A stretch of DNA of 64,000 bases from a virus: IMG/VR virus record IMGVR_UViG_3300025237_000001, positions 133,359 to 197,358 of that record; one strand, given 5' to 3'. Shown here in pieces: positions 49,046-54,848 of this stretch (within the stretch, counting starts at the first letter, position 1; each line of letters begins with the position of its first letter). The notes below the pieces were generated by a model. That model was not told the DNA's origin and ran no database searches. It was given only the letters and a program-made list of their open reading frames with translations. Both the position numbers and the translations under genes were made by a program.

Positions 49046-49121
49046 GGGATTATAGCTCAGGGGTAGAGCGGGGATTTCTAAAGTCTTGTCGTCACGGGTT
49101 CGAAACCTGTTAGTCTCACCA
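49046..49121 (+). tRNA. amber-suppressor tRNA (anticodon CUA) #1
   Basis: Cloverleaf GGGATTA/TAGTCTC, loop TT-CTA-AA, T-loop TTCGAAA, encoded CCA. Confidence 0.85.
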
Positions 49122-49270
49122 TGGGAATAAATAGAGCAAACAAAAGAAAATGTAAAAAAGGTTGTGGTTGCAAGATGTGTAAACCACATAAAGGTAAATG
49201 GGCACCGTTCTTTAAAGCTAAAGATAAAGCGACCATGAATAACATGAATAAACAAATTAAAGAATTATGA
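49121..49270 (+). CDS. 49-aa basic Cys-rich peptide
   Basis: MGINRANKRKCKKGCGCKMCKPHKGKW...; coupled to next ORF by ATGA. Confidence 0.5.
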   Translation: MGINRANKRKCKKGCGCKMCKPHKGKWAPFFKAKDKATMNNMNKQIKEL

Positions 49271-49359
49271 AAAATGAATGTACGTGTAAATTAAATTGCA
49301 CACAAGAAAATTGTCAGTGTACACCACAAGGATGTGCCTGTGAATGCTGTAAAAAGTAA
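49267..49359 (+). CDS. 30-aa metallothionein-like peptide
   Basis: MKNECTCKLNCTQENCQCTPQGCACECCKK; 9 Cys in CxC/CC motifs. Confidence 0.6.
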   Translation: MKNECTCKLNCTQENCQCTPQGCACECCKK

Positions 49360-49453
49360 AAAAAATAAAAATAAATAAGAAAAAGCTTGTTTATTACAAT
49401 ATTTATTATTATATTTGTACCGTAGTATAAATTAAAACTTAAAAAGTAAAATT

Positions 49454-49813
49454 ATGAAAGACACTTAGATTAAAAACGACAGTAAATTAAGAGTAATCAC
49501 AAGACGTGATTTAGCTCTACCTACACAAGCGGTCCAATCAGGACATGCTGGTATTCAGTTTCAACACGAATACCCAGAATTAGCAAAAGATTGGTATCAC
49601 AATTCCAACTATTTAATTTTCCTATCTGTGGAAAATGAAGACGAACTTAAGAAGTTCATCAATAAAGCTAATTCTAACAATATCAAATTATCAATTTTTA
49701 GAGAACCTGACTTAAACAACGAGATAACGGCAATTGCCTTAGAACCTTGTGATTGGTCAAGACGGCACACTAGTGGCTTTCCCTTAATGAGAACGGAGGT
49801 CTGCCATGCGTAA
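49454..49813 (+). CDS. Pth2-like peptidyl-tRNA hydrolase with in-frame TAG at codon 5
   Basis: MKDT*IKNDSKLRVITRRDL..QAVQSGHA..W..SNYLIFL..E..L..FREPD..EITAIAL; own TATATTTG promoter at 49410. Confidence 0.75.
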
Positions 49814-50042
49814 AGATACAATAGTTTTCCATTTCAACAAAGCACATTTAAAAGATGCAACTATACCTATGTGGGTTATCAAACACAAAGGTATGACTCA
49901 CTATGTCCATCATTTTACGAGTGAAGTAGGGTTTTCAACGAAAGAAACCCCAGACAATGAACATACAAAGGGTAGTTTAAAATTTAAGGGTAATTTAACC
50001 TTATATTCAGAAGATAATAAAAACATGGCTTTAATAGAATAA
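49806..50042 (+). CDS. hypothetical phage protein
   Basis: FHFNK..IPMWVIK..STKETPD..HTKGS; coupled to Pth2-like gene. Confidence 0.6.
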   Translation: MRKDTIVFHFNKAHLKDATIPMWVIKHKGMTHYVHHFTSEVGFSTKETPDNEHTKGSLKFKGNLTLYSEDNKNMALIE

Positions 50043-50050
50043 AGCCATAT

Positions 50051-50170
50051 GATGCGGTGGTCCGAGTGGCTAGGTCCTAGACTGTGAAAAGTCTAGAGTG
50101 AATTAAAATGAAATATAAAACTATATGATTTAAGATTCACGTCAGGGAGGTTCGAATCCTTCCCGCATCT
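50051..50170 (+). ncRNA. tRNA-like RNA (Cys-type scaffold) with 8-nt anticodon loop and ~45-nt variable arm
   Basis: GATGCGG/CCGCATC-U73, CTAGAC-TGTGAAAA-GTCTAG, GTGAAT/ATTCAC, GGAGG-TTCGAAT-CCTTC. Confidence 0.7.
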
Positions 50171-50175
50171 CAAAT

Positions 50176-50344
50176 GATTAGGTAACGCTAAGTGGATTTG
50201 CGTACTTGGGATTAATAGATTAAGTAAAGAAAGTTATTGAATAATGTACTAAAAGATAACTAGTAAAGAAAATGATATTAATAACATAGGTGGTATAACG
50301 TGTACAACCGAAAAGGGTTGAAGGTTCGGTTCCTTCCCTAATCA
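50176..50344 (+). ncRNA. tRNA-like RNA with ~100-nt insertion
   Basis: GATTAGG/CCTAATC-A, D-arm ACGC/GCGT, T-arm GAAGG-TTCGGTT-CCTTC. Confidence 0.65.
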
Positions 50345-50349
50345 CAAAA

Positions 50350-50532
50350 GGCGATAGGTCAAAAAGTGGGTAGTAAGTAAACTAGATAGGTTGAAGTAAT
50401 CATGATTACAGATACGGATATTCTAGCATGAAAGCGATATTGATGGAATTAGAATCCCCACCGTAAAGACAAACAGAAGTTATAGATTCTGCGTGTAATA
50501 GGTTTAGCTGGGTTCGAATCCCTCTATCGTCA
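50350..50532 (+). ncRNA. tRNA-like RNA with 9/3 acceptor/T-stem and large insertion
   Basis: GGCGATAGG/TCTATCGTC-A; GGG-TTCGAAT-CCC. Confidence 0.55.
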
Positions 50533-50536
50533 CAAA

Positions 50537-50609
50537 GCTGAGATAGTTCAATTGGTTGAACGCCAGTCTCTAAAACTGGAAGTTGTGGGTTCGAACCCCA
50601 CTCTCGGCA
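50537..50609 (+). tRNA. amber-suppressor tRNA (anticodon CUA) #2
   Basis: GCTGAGA/TCTCGGC-A, CCAGT-CT-CTA-AA-ACTGG, GTGGG-TTCGAAC-CCCAC. Confidence 0.9.
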
Positions 50610-50630
50610 CTAATATTAAAACAATAAATT

Positions 50631-50669
50631 ATGAAGAACACTTAGATTCGGATTAGAAATCCACCGTAA
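50631..50669 (+). CDS. amber-containing mini-ORF/leader MKNT*IRIRNPP
   Basis: ATG AAG AAC ACT TAG ATT CGG ATT AGA AAT CCA CCG TAA; same start context as 49454. Confidence 0.55.
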
Positions 50670-50683
50670 CATCCATTTTTAAA

Positions 50684-50779
50684 TCTATAAGTCGCCAAAG
50701 GTGGCAAAAAACGTTAGCTTTGGCGACTTATAGAAATCTAACCGCAGCCAAATGTAGGTAAAACATATGATTTGGCTGC
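50684..50779 (+). promoter_or_regulatory. twin hairpins with shared GCCAAA/TTTGGC core
   Basis: Perfect 17-bp stem 50684-50734 and 10-bp stem 50744-50779; no U-tract. Confidence 0.65.
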
Positions 50780-50813
50780 ACTTAAAATAATATTAAACTT
50801 AAAATACAAAAAA

Positions 50814-51251
50814 ATGGAAGTACAAGATTCAATTAGAATGCAATTCACGGAAACACAATTAGAAAATAACTATTACGAAATGATTAAAACAATCAGCGAA
50901 ATAGTGAAAGTTAAAGATTTCACTATCACAATAGATGGAGTAGAAACAGATGTATTAATACATTTAAAACCAGACTTTAGTGATTTATCTCAAAATGCTA
51001 GAAAGAACTTAGCAAAGAGAATGTACTATGTTGATAAGAAGAAAAGTCGTAAGTCAATAAACACGTTTTTCTTCATTGCAAGAAGATTAGGGGTGATTAA
51101 TAGTAACATTTCAATCAAATTAGGTAAAAAAGAACGTGAAATCCAAAGAAAGAGAAAAATTTGGACCATCATGAGAGACAACGCTGACAAGGCTTTACAA
51201 GAATATAAAAAAGAAAAAGGTGATTTTTATAAGAAAACCTTGGAAGTGTAA
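50814..51251 (+). CDS. hypothetical basic protein
   Basis: ATG at 50814; Lys/Arg-rich C-terminus. Confidence 0.55.
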   Translation: MEVQDSIRMQFTETQLENNYYEMIKTISEIVKVKDFTITIDGVETDVLIHLKPDFSDLSQNARKNLAKRMYYVDKKKSRKSINTFFFIARRLGVINSNISIKLGKKEREIQRKRKIWTIMRDNADKALQEYKKEKGDFYKKTLEV

Positions 51252-53693: not shown

Positions 53694-54848
53694 ATGCGAA
53701 TTAAAAAGAAAAATATATTATTTGAACAAAGGGTAAGGTCACAGATGCCTATACCTGATGAGGTAAAAAAACTTCATTCTTTATTTACTAAGAATGGATT
53801 TGATTTATTCATCGTGGGTGGTGCTGTACGTGACACTCTTTTGAAAAAAGAAATTAAGGATTACGACCTTGCAACCAATGCGACACCAGAAGATATGGTT
53901 CCAATGTTTAATAAAGTTGGGATTAAAAATGTTCCAGTTGAAGTTGGTGGTAAACAAGCTGTTGTAAACATCCATATGAGTGATGATTACGAAATTGCTA
54001 CTTTTAGGTCTGATTCTAAAGAAGGTGATGGGCGAAGACCTGACTCAGTAACATTTACTGATATCGCAACTGATGTGTTGAGAAGAGATTTAACAATCAA
54101 CGCTTTATTCTACGATATGTCAACCAACGAGATTGTTGATTTAGTTGGTGGTATGGAAGACATCAAAAATGGTGTTATTAGAACTGTAGGTGAAGCAGAT
54201 GACCGTTTCAATGAAGATAAACTTAGAATTCTTAGAGCAATTAGATTTGCTGGTAGAATTGGTTCTAAATTAGACCCAGCTATTGATAAGTCATTAAGAC
54301 GAGATAGTTCATTAGAAGGAATTTCTGGTGAAAGAATTAGAGATGAATTTGTTAAGGGTATTAATTCGGCTAAGTCAGTTGAATACTTTTTATCCTTATT
54401 AGATAAGTACGGTTTATTCGATACTATCTTTAGAGGTCTTACACCAATAAATAAGGATTTCACTAATAAATTTAATGATTACCTTAGAGTAATTGCTAAG
54501 TTATTAAGAGACGTACCTTACGATTCAATCAACAAAACTTTGAATAGTTTGAAATACTCATCTTGGGAAAGTCAAAAGATTGTGTTCATGGTGGCTTTCC
54601 ACCAAACATTTTCTGAAAACACTTTCTATGCTTTGAAAAAGATGCATAAGAAATCTGGGATTAGTGATAATACATTCTTAGGATTTGTTGAAGAGACTGG
54701 TGGTGATGTTGGACTTACTCGTGACTTCATCAATCACCAACTAAGTATTAGTGGTGACTTTGTTAAAGAGAAGTACGGAATGAAAGATGGTCCTGAACTA
54801 GGGGTTAAGATTAAAGAATTAGAAACGCAGCTATTTCTTTCTAAATAG
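53694..54848 (+). CDS. cca: tRNA nucleotidyltransferase (CCA-adding/poly(A) polymerase class II)
   Basis: VGGAVRD..DYDLAT, RRDLTINA, RFNEDKLRILRAIRF; most nearby tRNAs lack encoded CCA. Confidence 0.85.
   Translation: MRIKKKNILFEQRVRSQMPIPDEVKKLHSLFTKNGFDLFIVGGAVRDTLLKKEIKDYDLATNATPEDMVPMFNKVGIKNVPVEVGGKQAVVNIHMSDDYEIATFRSDSKEGDGRRPDSVTFTDIATDVLRRDLTINALFYDMSTNEIVDLVGGMEDIKNGVIRTVGEADDRFNEDKLRILRAIRFAGRIGSKLDPAIDKSLRRDSSLEGISGERIRDEFVKGINSAKSVEYFLSLLDKYGLFDTIFRGLTPINKDFTNKFNDYLRVIAKLLRDVPYDSINKTLNSLKYSSWESQKIVFMVAFHQTFSENTFYALKKMHKKSGISDNTFLGFVEETGGDVGLTRDFINHQLSISGDFVKEKYGMKDGPELGVKIKELETQLFLSK

What the first reader, a model, noticed from the sequence alone, without database searches (positions are those of the whole stretch)
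49046..50669. Local amber-readthrough switch: two CUA suppressor tRNAs flank a Pth2-like gene gated by TAG at codon 5
Seen: CUA tRNAs at 49046 and 50537. The Pth2-like gene reads ATG AAA GAC ACT TAG ATT (49454), and no ATG/GTG/TTG lies between the TAG and the conserved N-terminal strand (KLRVITRRDL). A mini-ORF right after tRNA #2 repeats the context (ATG AAG AAC ACT TAG ATT). The rest of the window is plain code 11 with TAG used as a stop. Known: Pth2 recycles peptidyl-tRNA; short minigenes cause peptidyl-tRNA drop-off (lambda bar); UAG is read by RF1. Inference: not genome recoding but a dedicated circuit in which the suppressor-tRNA/RF1 balance licenses Pth synthesis. The duplicated context argues against a sequencing error. 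I know of no description of this circuit.
Basis: partly seen in the sequence, partly recalled or inferred. Interest (0 to 1): 0.9.

Follow-up and report, generated by a model that had tools for sequence, protein, structure and literature searches.

The report
Stop-codon-gated phage Pth2-like module
A large marine phage that otherwise uses the normal genetic code keeps a UAG stop as codon 5 of a small tRNA-hydrolase-like gene and of a nearby 12-codon leader, next to two of its own UAG-reading tRNAs. Dozens of distant phages share this layout, so these genes are probably made only while the phage tRNA overrides the stop.

Summary
Both CUA tRNAs are real, and the Pth2-fold gene reads ATG AAA GAC ACT TAG ATT with no usable start for 53 codons after the TAG. 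The 197-kb contig is otherwise plain code 11: TAG ends 11 of 206 ORFs, and the capsid and portal genes have no in-frame stops.

The early stop is a family trait:
- 52 of 67 non-redundant homologues (IMG/VR phage contigs) have ATG, 1-6 sense codons, then a stop.
- The next base is always a purine.
- Wherever a suppressor tRNA lies in the locus, its anticodon matches the stop (39 of 39, including TAA/UUA and TGA/UCA).

This favours readthrough over reinitiation, sequencing error or general recoding.

The "mini-ORF" is more than a repeated context. Read through its TAG it encodes MKNT-x-IRIRNPP, one of 13 variants of a conserved R-x-P-P/T leader resembling RAPP-type arrest peptides. Its end is predicted to pair with the start codon of the next gene.

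A conserved 78-aa gene overlaps the end of the Pth2-like gene.

Nothing here is experimental. I found no published description. The same module was noted earlier in this scan on other genomes (239 notes, at least 161 genomes).

The parts
49046..49121 (+). tRNA with CUA anticodon, copy 1. CCA is encoded. The anticodon stem has three G-U pairs.
   Evidence: ARAGORN. Rfam RF00005, 47.5 bits. Its nearest relatives are other phages' CUA tRNAs. A related strain has a different 74-nt sequence at this place.
49410..49417 (+). TATATTTG box about 37 nt upstream of the ATG; possibly a Bacteroidota-type -7 promoter element (inferred).
   Evidence: Sequence. Similar TATATTTG/A boxes lie upstream of the homologues in L001, L004-L006 and L008. 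The match to the TAnnTTTG consensus rests on my own knowledge and was not tested.
49454..49813 (+). Pth2-fold gene of 119 codons, with in-frame TAG at 49466-49468 (codon 5).
   Evidence: Pfam PF01981, E=5e-9. PDB profile hits 2zv3, 1rzw and 1q7s. AF2 model pLDDT 93, with Foldseek TM 0.71-0.77 to Pth2 structures. No canonical start for 53 codons after the TAG.
49806..50042 (+). Conserved 78-aa partner gene whose ATG overlaps the end of the Pth2-like ORF (ATGCGTAA), so it is probably translationally coupled.
   Evidence: tblastn finds 55-67% identity directly after (once before) the Pth2-like gene in about 30 loci. The overlapping start is conserved. No family hit. Small beta fold with no PDB match.
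50537..50610 (+). tRNA with CUA anticodon, copy 2. Its anticodon arm resembles that of tRNA-Trp.
   Evidence: ARAGORN. Rfam 70.4 bits. Unlike copy 1 (score 8); nearest to other phages' CUA tRNAs.
50631..50669 (+). Leader ORF M-K-N-T-UAG-I-R-I-R-N-P-P-stop. TAG at 50643-50645; R-N-P-P codons at 50655-50666.
   Evidence: Sequence. 13 distinct homologous leaders with R-[AGKN]-P-[PT] after an early stop occur in 25 loci on the gene strand, against 3 pattern hits on the other strand. The Arg codon varies (AGA/CGA/AGG).
50666..50680 (+). 5' arm of a long-range RNA helix: the last bases of the leader plus 11 nt after its stop.
   Evidence: MFE fold: it pairs with 50810-50823. The region's fold has z = -8.3 against shuffles.
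50684..50779 (+). Two strong internal hairpins enclosed by the long-range helix.
   Evidence: Comparable enclosed hairpins occur in relatives.
50810..50823 (+). 3' arm of the helix, covering the AUG (50814-50816) of the next gene.
   Evidence: The AUG stays paired if the mRNA is blocked up to 50658 (ribosome at the TAG). It is free if blocked up to 50680 (ribosome at the leader's end).
50814..51251 (+). Gene X, 145 aa of unknown function; the presumed regulated gene.
   Evidence: ORF. 37% identical to the gene behind the leader in L046/LR756500. In other loci the gene behind the leader belongs to other small families. No family hit.

Best explanation
The region holds a suppressor-tRNA-dependent expression module in a phage that otherwise uses code 11. 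It contains two gated units.

Unit 1: the Pth2-fold gene. Its own codon 5 is UAG. Full-length protein, and by translational coupling the overlapping 78-aa partner, is made only when a phage tRNA(CUA) decodes that UAG before release factor 1 ends the 4-residue peptide.

Unit 2: the 12-codon leader behind tRNA copy 2. A ribosome that ends at its UAG leaves a long-range helix intact, and that helix buries the AUG of gene X. A ribosome that reads through reaches I-R-I-R-N-P-P-stop, pauses there (an R-x-P-P arrest-type motif followed by a stop), covers the 5' arm of the helix and frees the AUG.

Shown here:
- the sequences;
- the Pth2 fold;
- conservation of the early stop;
- the match between stop codon and suppressor anticodon;
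- the predicted helix.

Inferred:
- that the tRNAs are expressed and charged;
- that readthrough occurs;
- that the motif stalls ribosomes;
- what the Pth2-like protein does.

My guess at its role is hydrolysis of peptidyl- or acyl-tRNA that accumulates once stop codons are being read through, or action on the suppressor tRNA itself.
For: - tRNAs, PTH2 domain and TAG are confirmed.
- No start codon lies behind the TAG. The next one (GTG, 53 codons on) would delete strand 1 and helix 1, which carry the invariant Q23 and H26.
- 52 of 67 non-redundant homologues have ATG, 1-6 codons, then a stop: TAG 48, TAA 2, TGA 2.
- The base after the stop is a purine in 52 of 52. By my own recollection of the E. 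coli literature, this is the context that favours amber suppression.
- A suppressor tRNA lies in the same 5-kb locus in 39 of the 52, and its anticodon matches the stop in 39 of 39.
- The TAA-bearing genome G001 has a tRNA(UUA) and no tRNA(CUA) among its 39 tRNAs.
- Within one genome, the leader and the Pth2-like gene share the number of leading codons, the stop and the next codon: this window, L001, L006 and L008.
- The leader peptide after the stop is conserved at the amino-acid level, with synonymous Arg codons.
- The leader's end pairs with the start region of the next gene here and in 14 other loci, using arms of unrelated sequence.
- R-x-P-P with small x is a known arrest motif and the Arg is essential (PMC12992588; PMC10951233).
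- The contig is not generally recoded. Its T4-type capsid and portal genes have no in-frame stops.
- The cultured Tenacibaculum phage pT24 has ATG AAA TAG ATA before its Pth2-HD gene, and GenBank starts that CDS at an internal codon.
Against: - No experimental or expression evidence exists for tRNA function, readthrough or stalling.
- TAG still ends 11 ORFs of the contig, five of them in the window, including the CCA-adding enzyme. A strong suppressor would extend these, by a median of 7 codons.
- tRNA copy 1 has a weak anticodon stem.
- The window's motif is R-N-P-P. I found no record of Asn being tested at that position. Many relatives end in P-T rather than P-P, which does not fit the published RAPP mechanism, where Pro must sit in the A site.
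- Duplex energies for the leader/start helix are only modestly better than controls: mean z -1.5, individual values -0.35 to -3.4.
- 33 of 52 codons after the stop are ATT, a possible weak start codon.
- 13 of the 52 gated loci have no suppressor tRNA within 2.5 kb.
- The Pth2 catalytic Lys is not conserved, so the enzymatic activity is uncertain.
Confidence: 0.6

Rival explanations
1. Mini-ORF with termination-reinitiation. ATG AAA GAC ACT TAG is a real 4-codon upstream ORF. After release at UAG the ribosome reinitiates on the adjacent AUU, so the Pth2-like protein starts at Ile and needs no suppressor. The tRNAs are then merely neighbours.
For: The codon after the stop is ATT in 33 of 52 homologues and ATA/ATC/ACG in 3 more. 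All of these are near-cognate starts (my own knowledge; infC uses AUU). In XacN1 a normal ATG follows the TAG after four codons, and that ATG is the annotated start.
Against: 16 of 52 homologues have GTA, AAC, AAT, GGC, GGA, AGA or GAA after the stop, and none of these is a start codon. The stop codon tracks the anticodon of the linked suppressor tRNA in 39 of 39 loci, including the TAA/UUA and TGA/UCA switches, which reinitiation does not predict. In the leader, a peptide motif is conserved in frame after the stop.
Confidence: 0.12
2. Ordinary partial TAG recoding (code-15 type). The phage reads TAG as an amino acid late in infection. The Pth2-like gene is just one of many TAG-containing genes, and the others lie in the roughly 44% of the genome not on this contig.
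For: The contig is estimated to be 56% complete. Some relatives carry further internal TAGs in the same gene: L002, L065, L075, L078, L085, L086. TAG is a rare stop here, at 5%. This fits the path to recoding proposed by Borges et al. (bioRxiv 10.1101/2021.08.26.457843).
Against: 197 kb holds no other TAG-interrupted ORF. The T4-type major capsid and portal genes, the class usually recoded, are on the contig and intact. TAG ends 11 ORFs. The stop sits at the same N-terminal place in 52 lineages, which looks like a regulatory site rather than random sense use.
Confidence: 0.13
3. Negative-feedback homeostat rather than a simple licence. The Pth2-like enzyme acts on the charged or peptidyl form of the suppressor tRNA itself, so more readthrough makes more enzyme, which lowers readthrough. 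This is the logic of prfB autoregulation. It is a variant of the best explanation that differs in the enzyme's target.
For: The Pth2-like gene is tightly linked to suppressor tRNAs even in homologues with ordinary ATG starts: L075, L081-L083, L085, L086, L088, L089, L091. It is fused to an HD domain in pT24 and XacN1. A CCA-adding enzyme lies 4 kb away.
Against: There are no data on substrate. The catalytic Lys of Pth2 is not conserved. The complex prediction with the partner gave no verdict and is not counted as evidence.
Confidence: 0.1
4. Decaying gene or assembly error: the TAG is a nonsense mutation or a base-calling mistake.
For: There is a single in-frame stop, and no RNA or protein data exist.
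Against: The same early stop occurs in 52 of 67 diverged homologues with intact, conserved downstream frames of 32-64% identity. It is also seen in contigs of other studies and in a cultured phage.
Confidence: 0.01

Closest known systems
Stop-codon-recoded phages with phage-encoded suppressor tRNAs (TAG read as Gln, 'code 15': Lak, crAss-like and others; Borges et al., bioRxiv 10.1101/2021.08.26.457843)
   Same: A phage-encoded tRNA(CUA) in a low-GC phage with few TAG stops. In-frame TAG is proposed to delay or license translation of particular genes.
   Different: Here the genome is otherwise standard code: capsid and portal genes are intact and TAG still ends genes. Only two short-range targets carry the stop. 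The stop sits at codons 3-8, in front of the folded domain, and the target is a translation-related gene rather than a lysis or structural gene. That preprint does not contain the word hydrolase.
RAPP/RGPP-type regulatory arrest peptides (ApdA, ApdP, ApcA; SecM with RAGP; PMC10951233, PMC10987492, PMC12992588)
   Same: A short upstream ORF ending in Arg-x-Pro-Pro. The predicted stall site overlaps a helix that hides the start of the downstream gene.
   Different: The motif can be reached only through an in-frame stop, so the sensed signal would be stop-codon readthrough, not protein export. The leader is only 12 codons long. x is Asn here. Many relatives end in Pro-Thr. The regulated genes are not Sec/YidC components. 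Stalling has not been tested.
prfB (RF2) autoregulation through an early in-frame UGA
   Same: An early in-frame stop in a translation-related gene makes its synthesis depend on the competition between termination and an alternative decoding event.
   Different: prfB uses a +1 frameshift and senses its own product. Here the frame continues unchanged, the alternative event is decoding by a dedicated tRNA, and no feedback has been shown.
Archaeal/eukaryotic peptidyl-tRNA hydrolase 2 (Pth2; PDB 2zv3, 3erj, 1wn2, 1xty, human Bit1 1q7s)
   Same: Same fold (TM 0.71-0.77). Pfam PF01981 is above its cut-off. The Q-x-x-H-A helix motif and the T-A-(I/V) strand are conserved.
   Different: Identity is only 18-27%. 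The NCBIfam equivalog cut-offs are missed by a wide margin. The Gly-Lys of Pth2 is not conserved, and D-A-G is replaced by an invariant E-P-D. The subfamily is phage-restricted: among 185,579 species genomes only 7 loci were found, all on MAG contigs that I suspect are mis-binned phage DNA, which was not tested.
Lambda bar minigenes
   Same: A very short ORF (AUG plus 1-6 codons, then a stop) near a gene tied to peptidyl-tRNA hydrolysis.
   Different: In the phage family the frame continues through the stop into a conserved protein or a conserved peptide, and the stop tracks a suppressor anticodon. No evidence for drop-off toxicity was obtained.

Membership tests
Pth2 (PF01981) peptidyl-tRNA hydrolase | Pfam PF01981 match above the gathering score | tested here: met
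   36.7 bits against a cut-off of 23; E=5.3e-9; residues 11-100 on profile positions 2-101 of 115.
Pth2 (PF01981) peptidyl-tRNA hydrolase | Pth2 alpha/beta fold | tested here: met
   AF2 model pLDDT 93.1. Foldseek top hits 2zv3, 3erj, 1wn2, 1q7s and 1xty, with E 2e-7 to 1e-5 and TM 0.70-0.77.
Pth2 (PF01981) peptidyl-tRNA hydrolase | Equivalog-level similarity (NCBIfam NF003314 / TIGR00283) | tested here: not met
   29.4 bits against a cut-off of 126, and 24.9 against 82.
Pth2 (PF01981) peptidyl-tRNA hydrolase | Catalytic residues of archaeal Pth2 (the Lys of the G-K motif and the Asp of D-A-G; that these are the catalytic residues is recalled from the literature) | tested here: inconclusive
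   In the profile alignments to 2zv3 and 1rzw, the Lys column is not conserved in the phage family and D-A-G aligns with the invariant E79-P80-D81. Q23, H26 and T87 are invariant.
Pth2 (PF01981) peptidyl-tRNA hydrolase | Hydrolysis of peptidyl-tRNA | not testable with these tools
   Needs an enzyme assay.
Amber suppressor tRNA | Cloverleaf with a CUA anticodon in a 7-nt loop (U33, purine 37) | tested here: met
   ARAGORN structures; Rfam 47.5 and 70.4 bits.
Amber suppressor tRNA | In-frame target codons that match the anticodon | tested here: met
   There are two TAG targets in the window. In relatives the stop matches the anticodon in 39 of 39 loci, including TAA/UUA and TGA/UCA.
Amber suppressor tRNA | Expression, aminoacylation and decoding of UAG in vivo | not testable with these tools
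   No RNA run holding the region was listed.
RAPP-type arrest-peptide leader | C-terminal Arg-x-Pro-Pro motif with small x | tested here: inconclusive
   The window has R-N-P-P. Relatives have RAPP, RGPP and RKPP, but also RAPT and RGPT. The published tolerated x residues are Gly, Ala, Ser, Pro and partly Asp (PMC12992588). I found no record of Asn being tested.
RAPP-type arrest-peptide leader | The stall site overlaps an RNA helix that hides the downstream start | tested here: met
   The helix 50666-50680 with 50810-50823 covers the AUG. It is opened only if the mRNA is blocked up to the leader's end. Relatives show the same layout (modest z scores). This is prediction only.
RAPP-type arrest-peptide leader | Demonstrated ribosome stalling | not testable with these tools
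   Needs toeprinting or a reporter assay.
Code-15 (TAG-recoded) phage | Many in-frame TAG codons, especially in structural and lysis genes | tested here: not met
   No other TAG-interrupted ORF in 197 kb. The gp23-type capsid and gp20-type portal genes have no stops inside. TAG ends 11 of 206 ORFs. The contig is only about 56% of the genome.

The most novel reading that the evidence does not exclude
The module is a natural sensor and homeostat of genetic-code state. The leader reports whether UAG is currently being read as sense. The Pth2-like enzyme, with its 78-aa partner, acts on the suppressor tRNA or on the peptidyl-tRNAs that readthrough produces, closing a feedback loop that lets a standard-code phage run a controlled level of stop-codon suppression in its host.
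Probability: 0.25. Interest if true: 0.9.

Novelty: new variant of a known kind. Interest (0 to 1): 0.78.

Why it matters
Many large phages with the standard code carry suppressor tRNAs that have no known target. The XacN1 authors state that they could not find genes targeted by its two CUA tRNAs (PMC5852040).

This module offers a concrete, conserved target. Gene callers and end-of-gene readthrough scans both miss it, because the stop lies in front of the annotated start. The GenBank CDS in pT24, for example, begins at an internal codon.

If the mechanism holds, several things follow:
- Suppressor tRNAs would be shown to act as regulatory molecules in genomes that are not recoded.
- A new input signal (stop-codon readthrough) would be added to arrest-peptide switches.
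- A phage-specific branch of the Pth2 fold would be linked to suppressor-tRNA biology.
- A natural, compact, orthogonal tRNA-gated expression switch would become available.
- Annotation would improve, since these genes are at present truncated or missed.

Tried and rejected
- A megablast of the region against GenBank phages found nothing.
- Quadruplet (UAGA) decoding is rejected. It would shift the frame into an early stop, whereas the Pth2 frame continues in the zero frame.
- Pyrrolysine is rejected. ARAGORN's 'tRNA-Pyl' label is only its name for a CUA anticodon, and the stop and anticodon switch to TAA/UUA and TGA/UCA in relatives.
- The inserted amino acid could not be identified. Internal TAGs in relatives align with E/Q, with G/N/K/S and with other columns, giving no consistent residue. 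tRNA copy 2 has a Trp-like anticodon arm, and copy 1 could not be assigned.
- The complex prediction of the Pth2-like protein with the 78-aa partner gave no verdict.
- The 78-aa partner has no Pfam, PHROG or NCBIfam hit, no ESM Atlas hit and no significant PDB fold match. The best match was E 0.24, and weak OB-like rows are not reliable.
- Gene X has no family hit either.
- No RNA holder was listed among public runs, so expression could not be examined.
- Sigma-70-type promoter and terminator scans of the region gave fewer promoter-like hits than shuffled controls and about as many terminator-like hits.
- Duplex energies alone do not prove the leader/start helix; the z scores are modest.
It was repeated with IMG/VR rows only.
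Full report
**What is there**

The window is the last 64 kb of a 197,358-bp IMG/VR phage contig. GC content is 32% and the estimated completeness is 56%. It carries T4-type major capsid and portal genes.

- ARAGORN and Infernal both call two tRNAs with a CUA anticodon, at 49046-49121 and 50537-50610.
- The two are unrelated in sequence. Each is closest to CUA tRNAs of other phages rather than to any sense tRNA in my set. Copy 2 has an anticodon arm like that of tRNA-Trp.
- Between them lies a 119-codon frame that starts ATG AAA GAC ACT TAG ATT.
- Read through, it matches Pfam PTH2 from residue 11 and solved archaeal and human Pth2 proteins by profile.
- It gives a confident model (pLDDT 93) that superposes on Pth2 structures at TM 0.71-0.77.
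- The next ATG/GTG/TTG after the TAG is 53 codons downstream, inside the fold.

**Is the genome recoded?**

No, as far as the contig shows.

- Scans of all six frames of the 197 kb found no other ORF split by a TAG or needing one read through at its start.
- Among 206 non-overlapping ORFs the stops are TAA 174, TGA 21 and TAG 11.
- The capsid and portal genes, the class recoded in code-15 phages, have no internal stops.

**Is the early stop an accident?**

No.

- The best GenBank matches are huge uncultured phages. LR756500 starts ATG AAG TAG ATT and LR756501 starts ATG TCG TAG ATT.
- Two scans of IMG/VR gave 88 loci.
- After removing duplicates, 52 of 67 homologues have ATG, one to six sense codons, a stop, and no canonical start before the conserved K-L-x-V-x-T-R-R-D-L strand. 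The stop is TAG in 48, TAA in 2 and TGA in 2.
- The base after the stop is A in 40 and G in 12, never a pyrimidine.
- The remaining, more distant homologues have ordinary ATG starts.
- Of the seven relatives found in 185,579 species genomes, all are on MAG contigs, probably phage DNA, and four are gated in the same way.
- Contigs of related strains from three other studies cover the start of the gene without a listed change at the TAG. That table was truncated, so I count this as weak support.

**Does a suppressor tRNA read it?**

The key test is whether the stop codon and the anticodon change together.

- A suppressor tRNA lies within 2.5 kb in 39 of the 52 gated loci, nearly always on the same strand. 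Its anticodon matches the stop in all 39. That includes L079 (TAA with UUA) and L070 (TGA with UCA).
- L008 uses TAA both in the gene and in its leader, and has no tRNA nearby. Its 676-kb genome encodes one tRNA(UUA), which looks like a mutated tRNA-Lys, and no tRNA(CUA) among its 39 tRNAs.
- Termination followed by reinitiation on the next codon does not predict this. It is also hard to reconcile with GTA, AAC, GGC, GGA, AGA or GAA after the stop in 16 lineages.
- I therefore prefer readthrough, while noting that ATT follows the stop in 33 of 52.

**The "mini-ORF" is a leader peptide**

- The second copy of the context (50631) does not end at its TAG in any meaningful sense. In frame it continues as I-R-I-R-N-P-P and then TAA (50669).
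- The same element occurs in 25 loci on the gene strand, against 3 pattern hits on the other strand. There are 13 distinct peptides after the stop: IARAPT, IIRAPP, ILRAPP, IIRGPT, ISRGPT, VIRGPT, TIRGPTG, INIRGPP, IRRKPP, IRKPP, IKIRGPTYVVFN, IKITIRGPTYLF and IRIRNPP.
- The Arg codon is AGA, CGA or AGG, so selection acts on the peptide.
- Within one genome the leader and the Pth2-like gene share the number of leading codons, the stop and the following codon. Both use TAA ATT in L008, both TAG GTA in L006, and both have four codons plus TAG ATT here.
- R-x-P-P with a small x is the core of RAPP-type arrest peptides, in which the Arg is essential (PMC10951233, PMC12992588).
- Asn at x, as here, has to my knowledge not been tested. 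The P-T endings of many relatives do not fit the published mechanism. Stalling is therefore an inference.

**RNA structure behind the leader**

- The region 50611-50840 folds far better than shuffles (z = -8.3).
- Its outer helix pairs 50666-50680 (the leader's last bases, its stop and 11 nt more) with 50810-50823. The latter contains the AUG of the next gene.
- If the mRNA is blocked up to 50658, as by a ribosome ending at the TAG, the helix stays. If it is blocked up to 50680, as by a ribosome at the leader's end, the AUG is free.
- In 14 other loci the leader's end likewise pairs with the region just before or across the next start codon, using arms of quite different sequence. In L066 the Pro-Pro codons CCUCCU pair with an AGGAGG Shine-Dalgarno sequence.
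- Duplex energies beat same-locus controls in all 15 cases, but only modestly (mean z -1.5).
- The gene behind the leader is a small protein of unknown function that differs between lineages. The window's gene is 37% identical to that of LR756500.

**Other members of the module**

- A 78-aa ORF (49806-50042) starts inside the last codons of the Pth2-like gene.
- It is conserved at 55-67% identity in the same overlapping position in about 30 loci.
- It has no family or fold match.
- In the cultured phages pT24 and XacN1 the Pth2-like domain is fused to an HD domain. pT24 reads ATG AAA TAG ATA, and its GenBank CDS begins at an internal codon. XacN1 reads ATG AAG TAG and then has an ATG four codons later.

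**What the protein is**

- It has the Pth2 fold and passes the Pfam threshold.
- It misses the NCBIfam equivalog cut-offs by a wide margin.
- It lacks the conserved Lys of Pth2 and has an invariant E-P-D where Pth2 has D-A-G.
- I therefore call it Pth2-like. Its substrate is unknown.

**Comparison and novelty**

- The nearest described systems are TAG-recoded phages with suppressor tRNAs (Borges et al.), RAPP-type arrest leaders and prfB autoregulation.
- None of them combines a standard-code genome, a stop placed in front of a folded domain, and a leader whose arrest motif lies behind a stop.
- Full-text searches found no description of it.
- The XacN1 paper states that targets of its CUA tRNAs could not be found.
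- Earlier AI notes of this scan describe the same module in many other genomes. I reached the leader and arrest-motif reading from the sequences before reading those notes, and I tested their main claims here: stop/anticodon matching, cultured carriers, and a helix over the next start.
- One later check recorded in those notes priced the bold reading at 20 in 100 for lack of experiments. That caution applies here too.

**Verdict**

Its reading of the mini-ORF is replaced by a readthrough-dependent leader. My confidence in suppressor-dependent gating is about 0.6, and lower for the stalling step.

Noticed in passing
window 50052-50536: Three consecutive tRNA-like genes at about 50052-50175, 50165-50347 and 50350-50536. 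Each has a 7-8-bp acceptor stem and a normal T arm, but carries an insertion of 45 to about 120 nt. Neither ARAGORN (with its intron option) nor Rfam calls them. In related strains this stretch is replaced by another tRNA (loose end at 50174).
   Followed up: partly
window 50428-50466: Inside the insertion of the third tRNA-like gene lies a 12-codon ORF encoding M-K-A-I-L-M-E-L-E-S-P-P. Its last 20 nt closely resemble the end of the TAG leader at 50649-50669. It looks like a decayed or variant leader copy without the in-frame TAG.
   Followed up: no
window 49121-49359: Two tiny Cys-rich ORFs of 49 and 30 aa lie between tRNA copy 1 and the Pth2-like gene. The first starts on the encoded CCA end of the tRNA. 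No family hits.
   Followed up: no
window 53694-54848: A tRNA nucleotidyltransferase (CCA-adding enzyme; PHROG 2244, E=1e-55) lies 4 kb downstream. It ends in TAG with the next in-frame stop 3 codons later, so it would be slightly extended under suppression.
   Followed up: partly
window 59949-60029; also L025, L028-L030, L049-L054: ARAGORN reports tRNA-like genes with 2-nt or 4-nt 'anticodons' (6- or 8-nt loops), both in the window's tRNA array and beside the Pth2-like gene in relatives. These may be unusual decoders or non-decoding tRNA-like RNAs.
   Followed up: no
L010/L011 1996-3354: The Pth2-like gene is split by an inserted ORF of about 300 aa with repeated zinc-ribbon-like motifs and a Vsr-like C-terminus, probably a homing endonuclease. 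The gene's 5' end is duplicated, and both copies keep M-K-x-TAG-I.
   Followed up: no
L076, L079 (and L068): In these homologues the Pth2-like frame changes partway through the gene, as if by a frameshift. L076 and L079 show the same shifted frame, so it may not be an assembly error.
   Followed up: no
L092 (Tenacibaculum phage pT24 LC168164, 194071-195036) and L093 (XacN1 AP018399, ORF364): The Pth2-like domain is fused to an HD-domain protein, in opposite orders in the two cultured phages. The pT24 CDS annotation starts at an internal codon and misses the M-K-TAG start together with part of the Pth2 domain.
   Followed up: partly
L014, L016, L025, L026, L041 intergenic regions behind the leader: Repeated palindromic boxes (TTGGACA...TGTCCAA and CATAGACA...TGTCTATG) lie inside the long-range helix. 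They could be protein-binding sites or simply stabilising hairpins.
   Followed up: no
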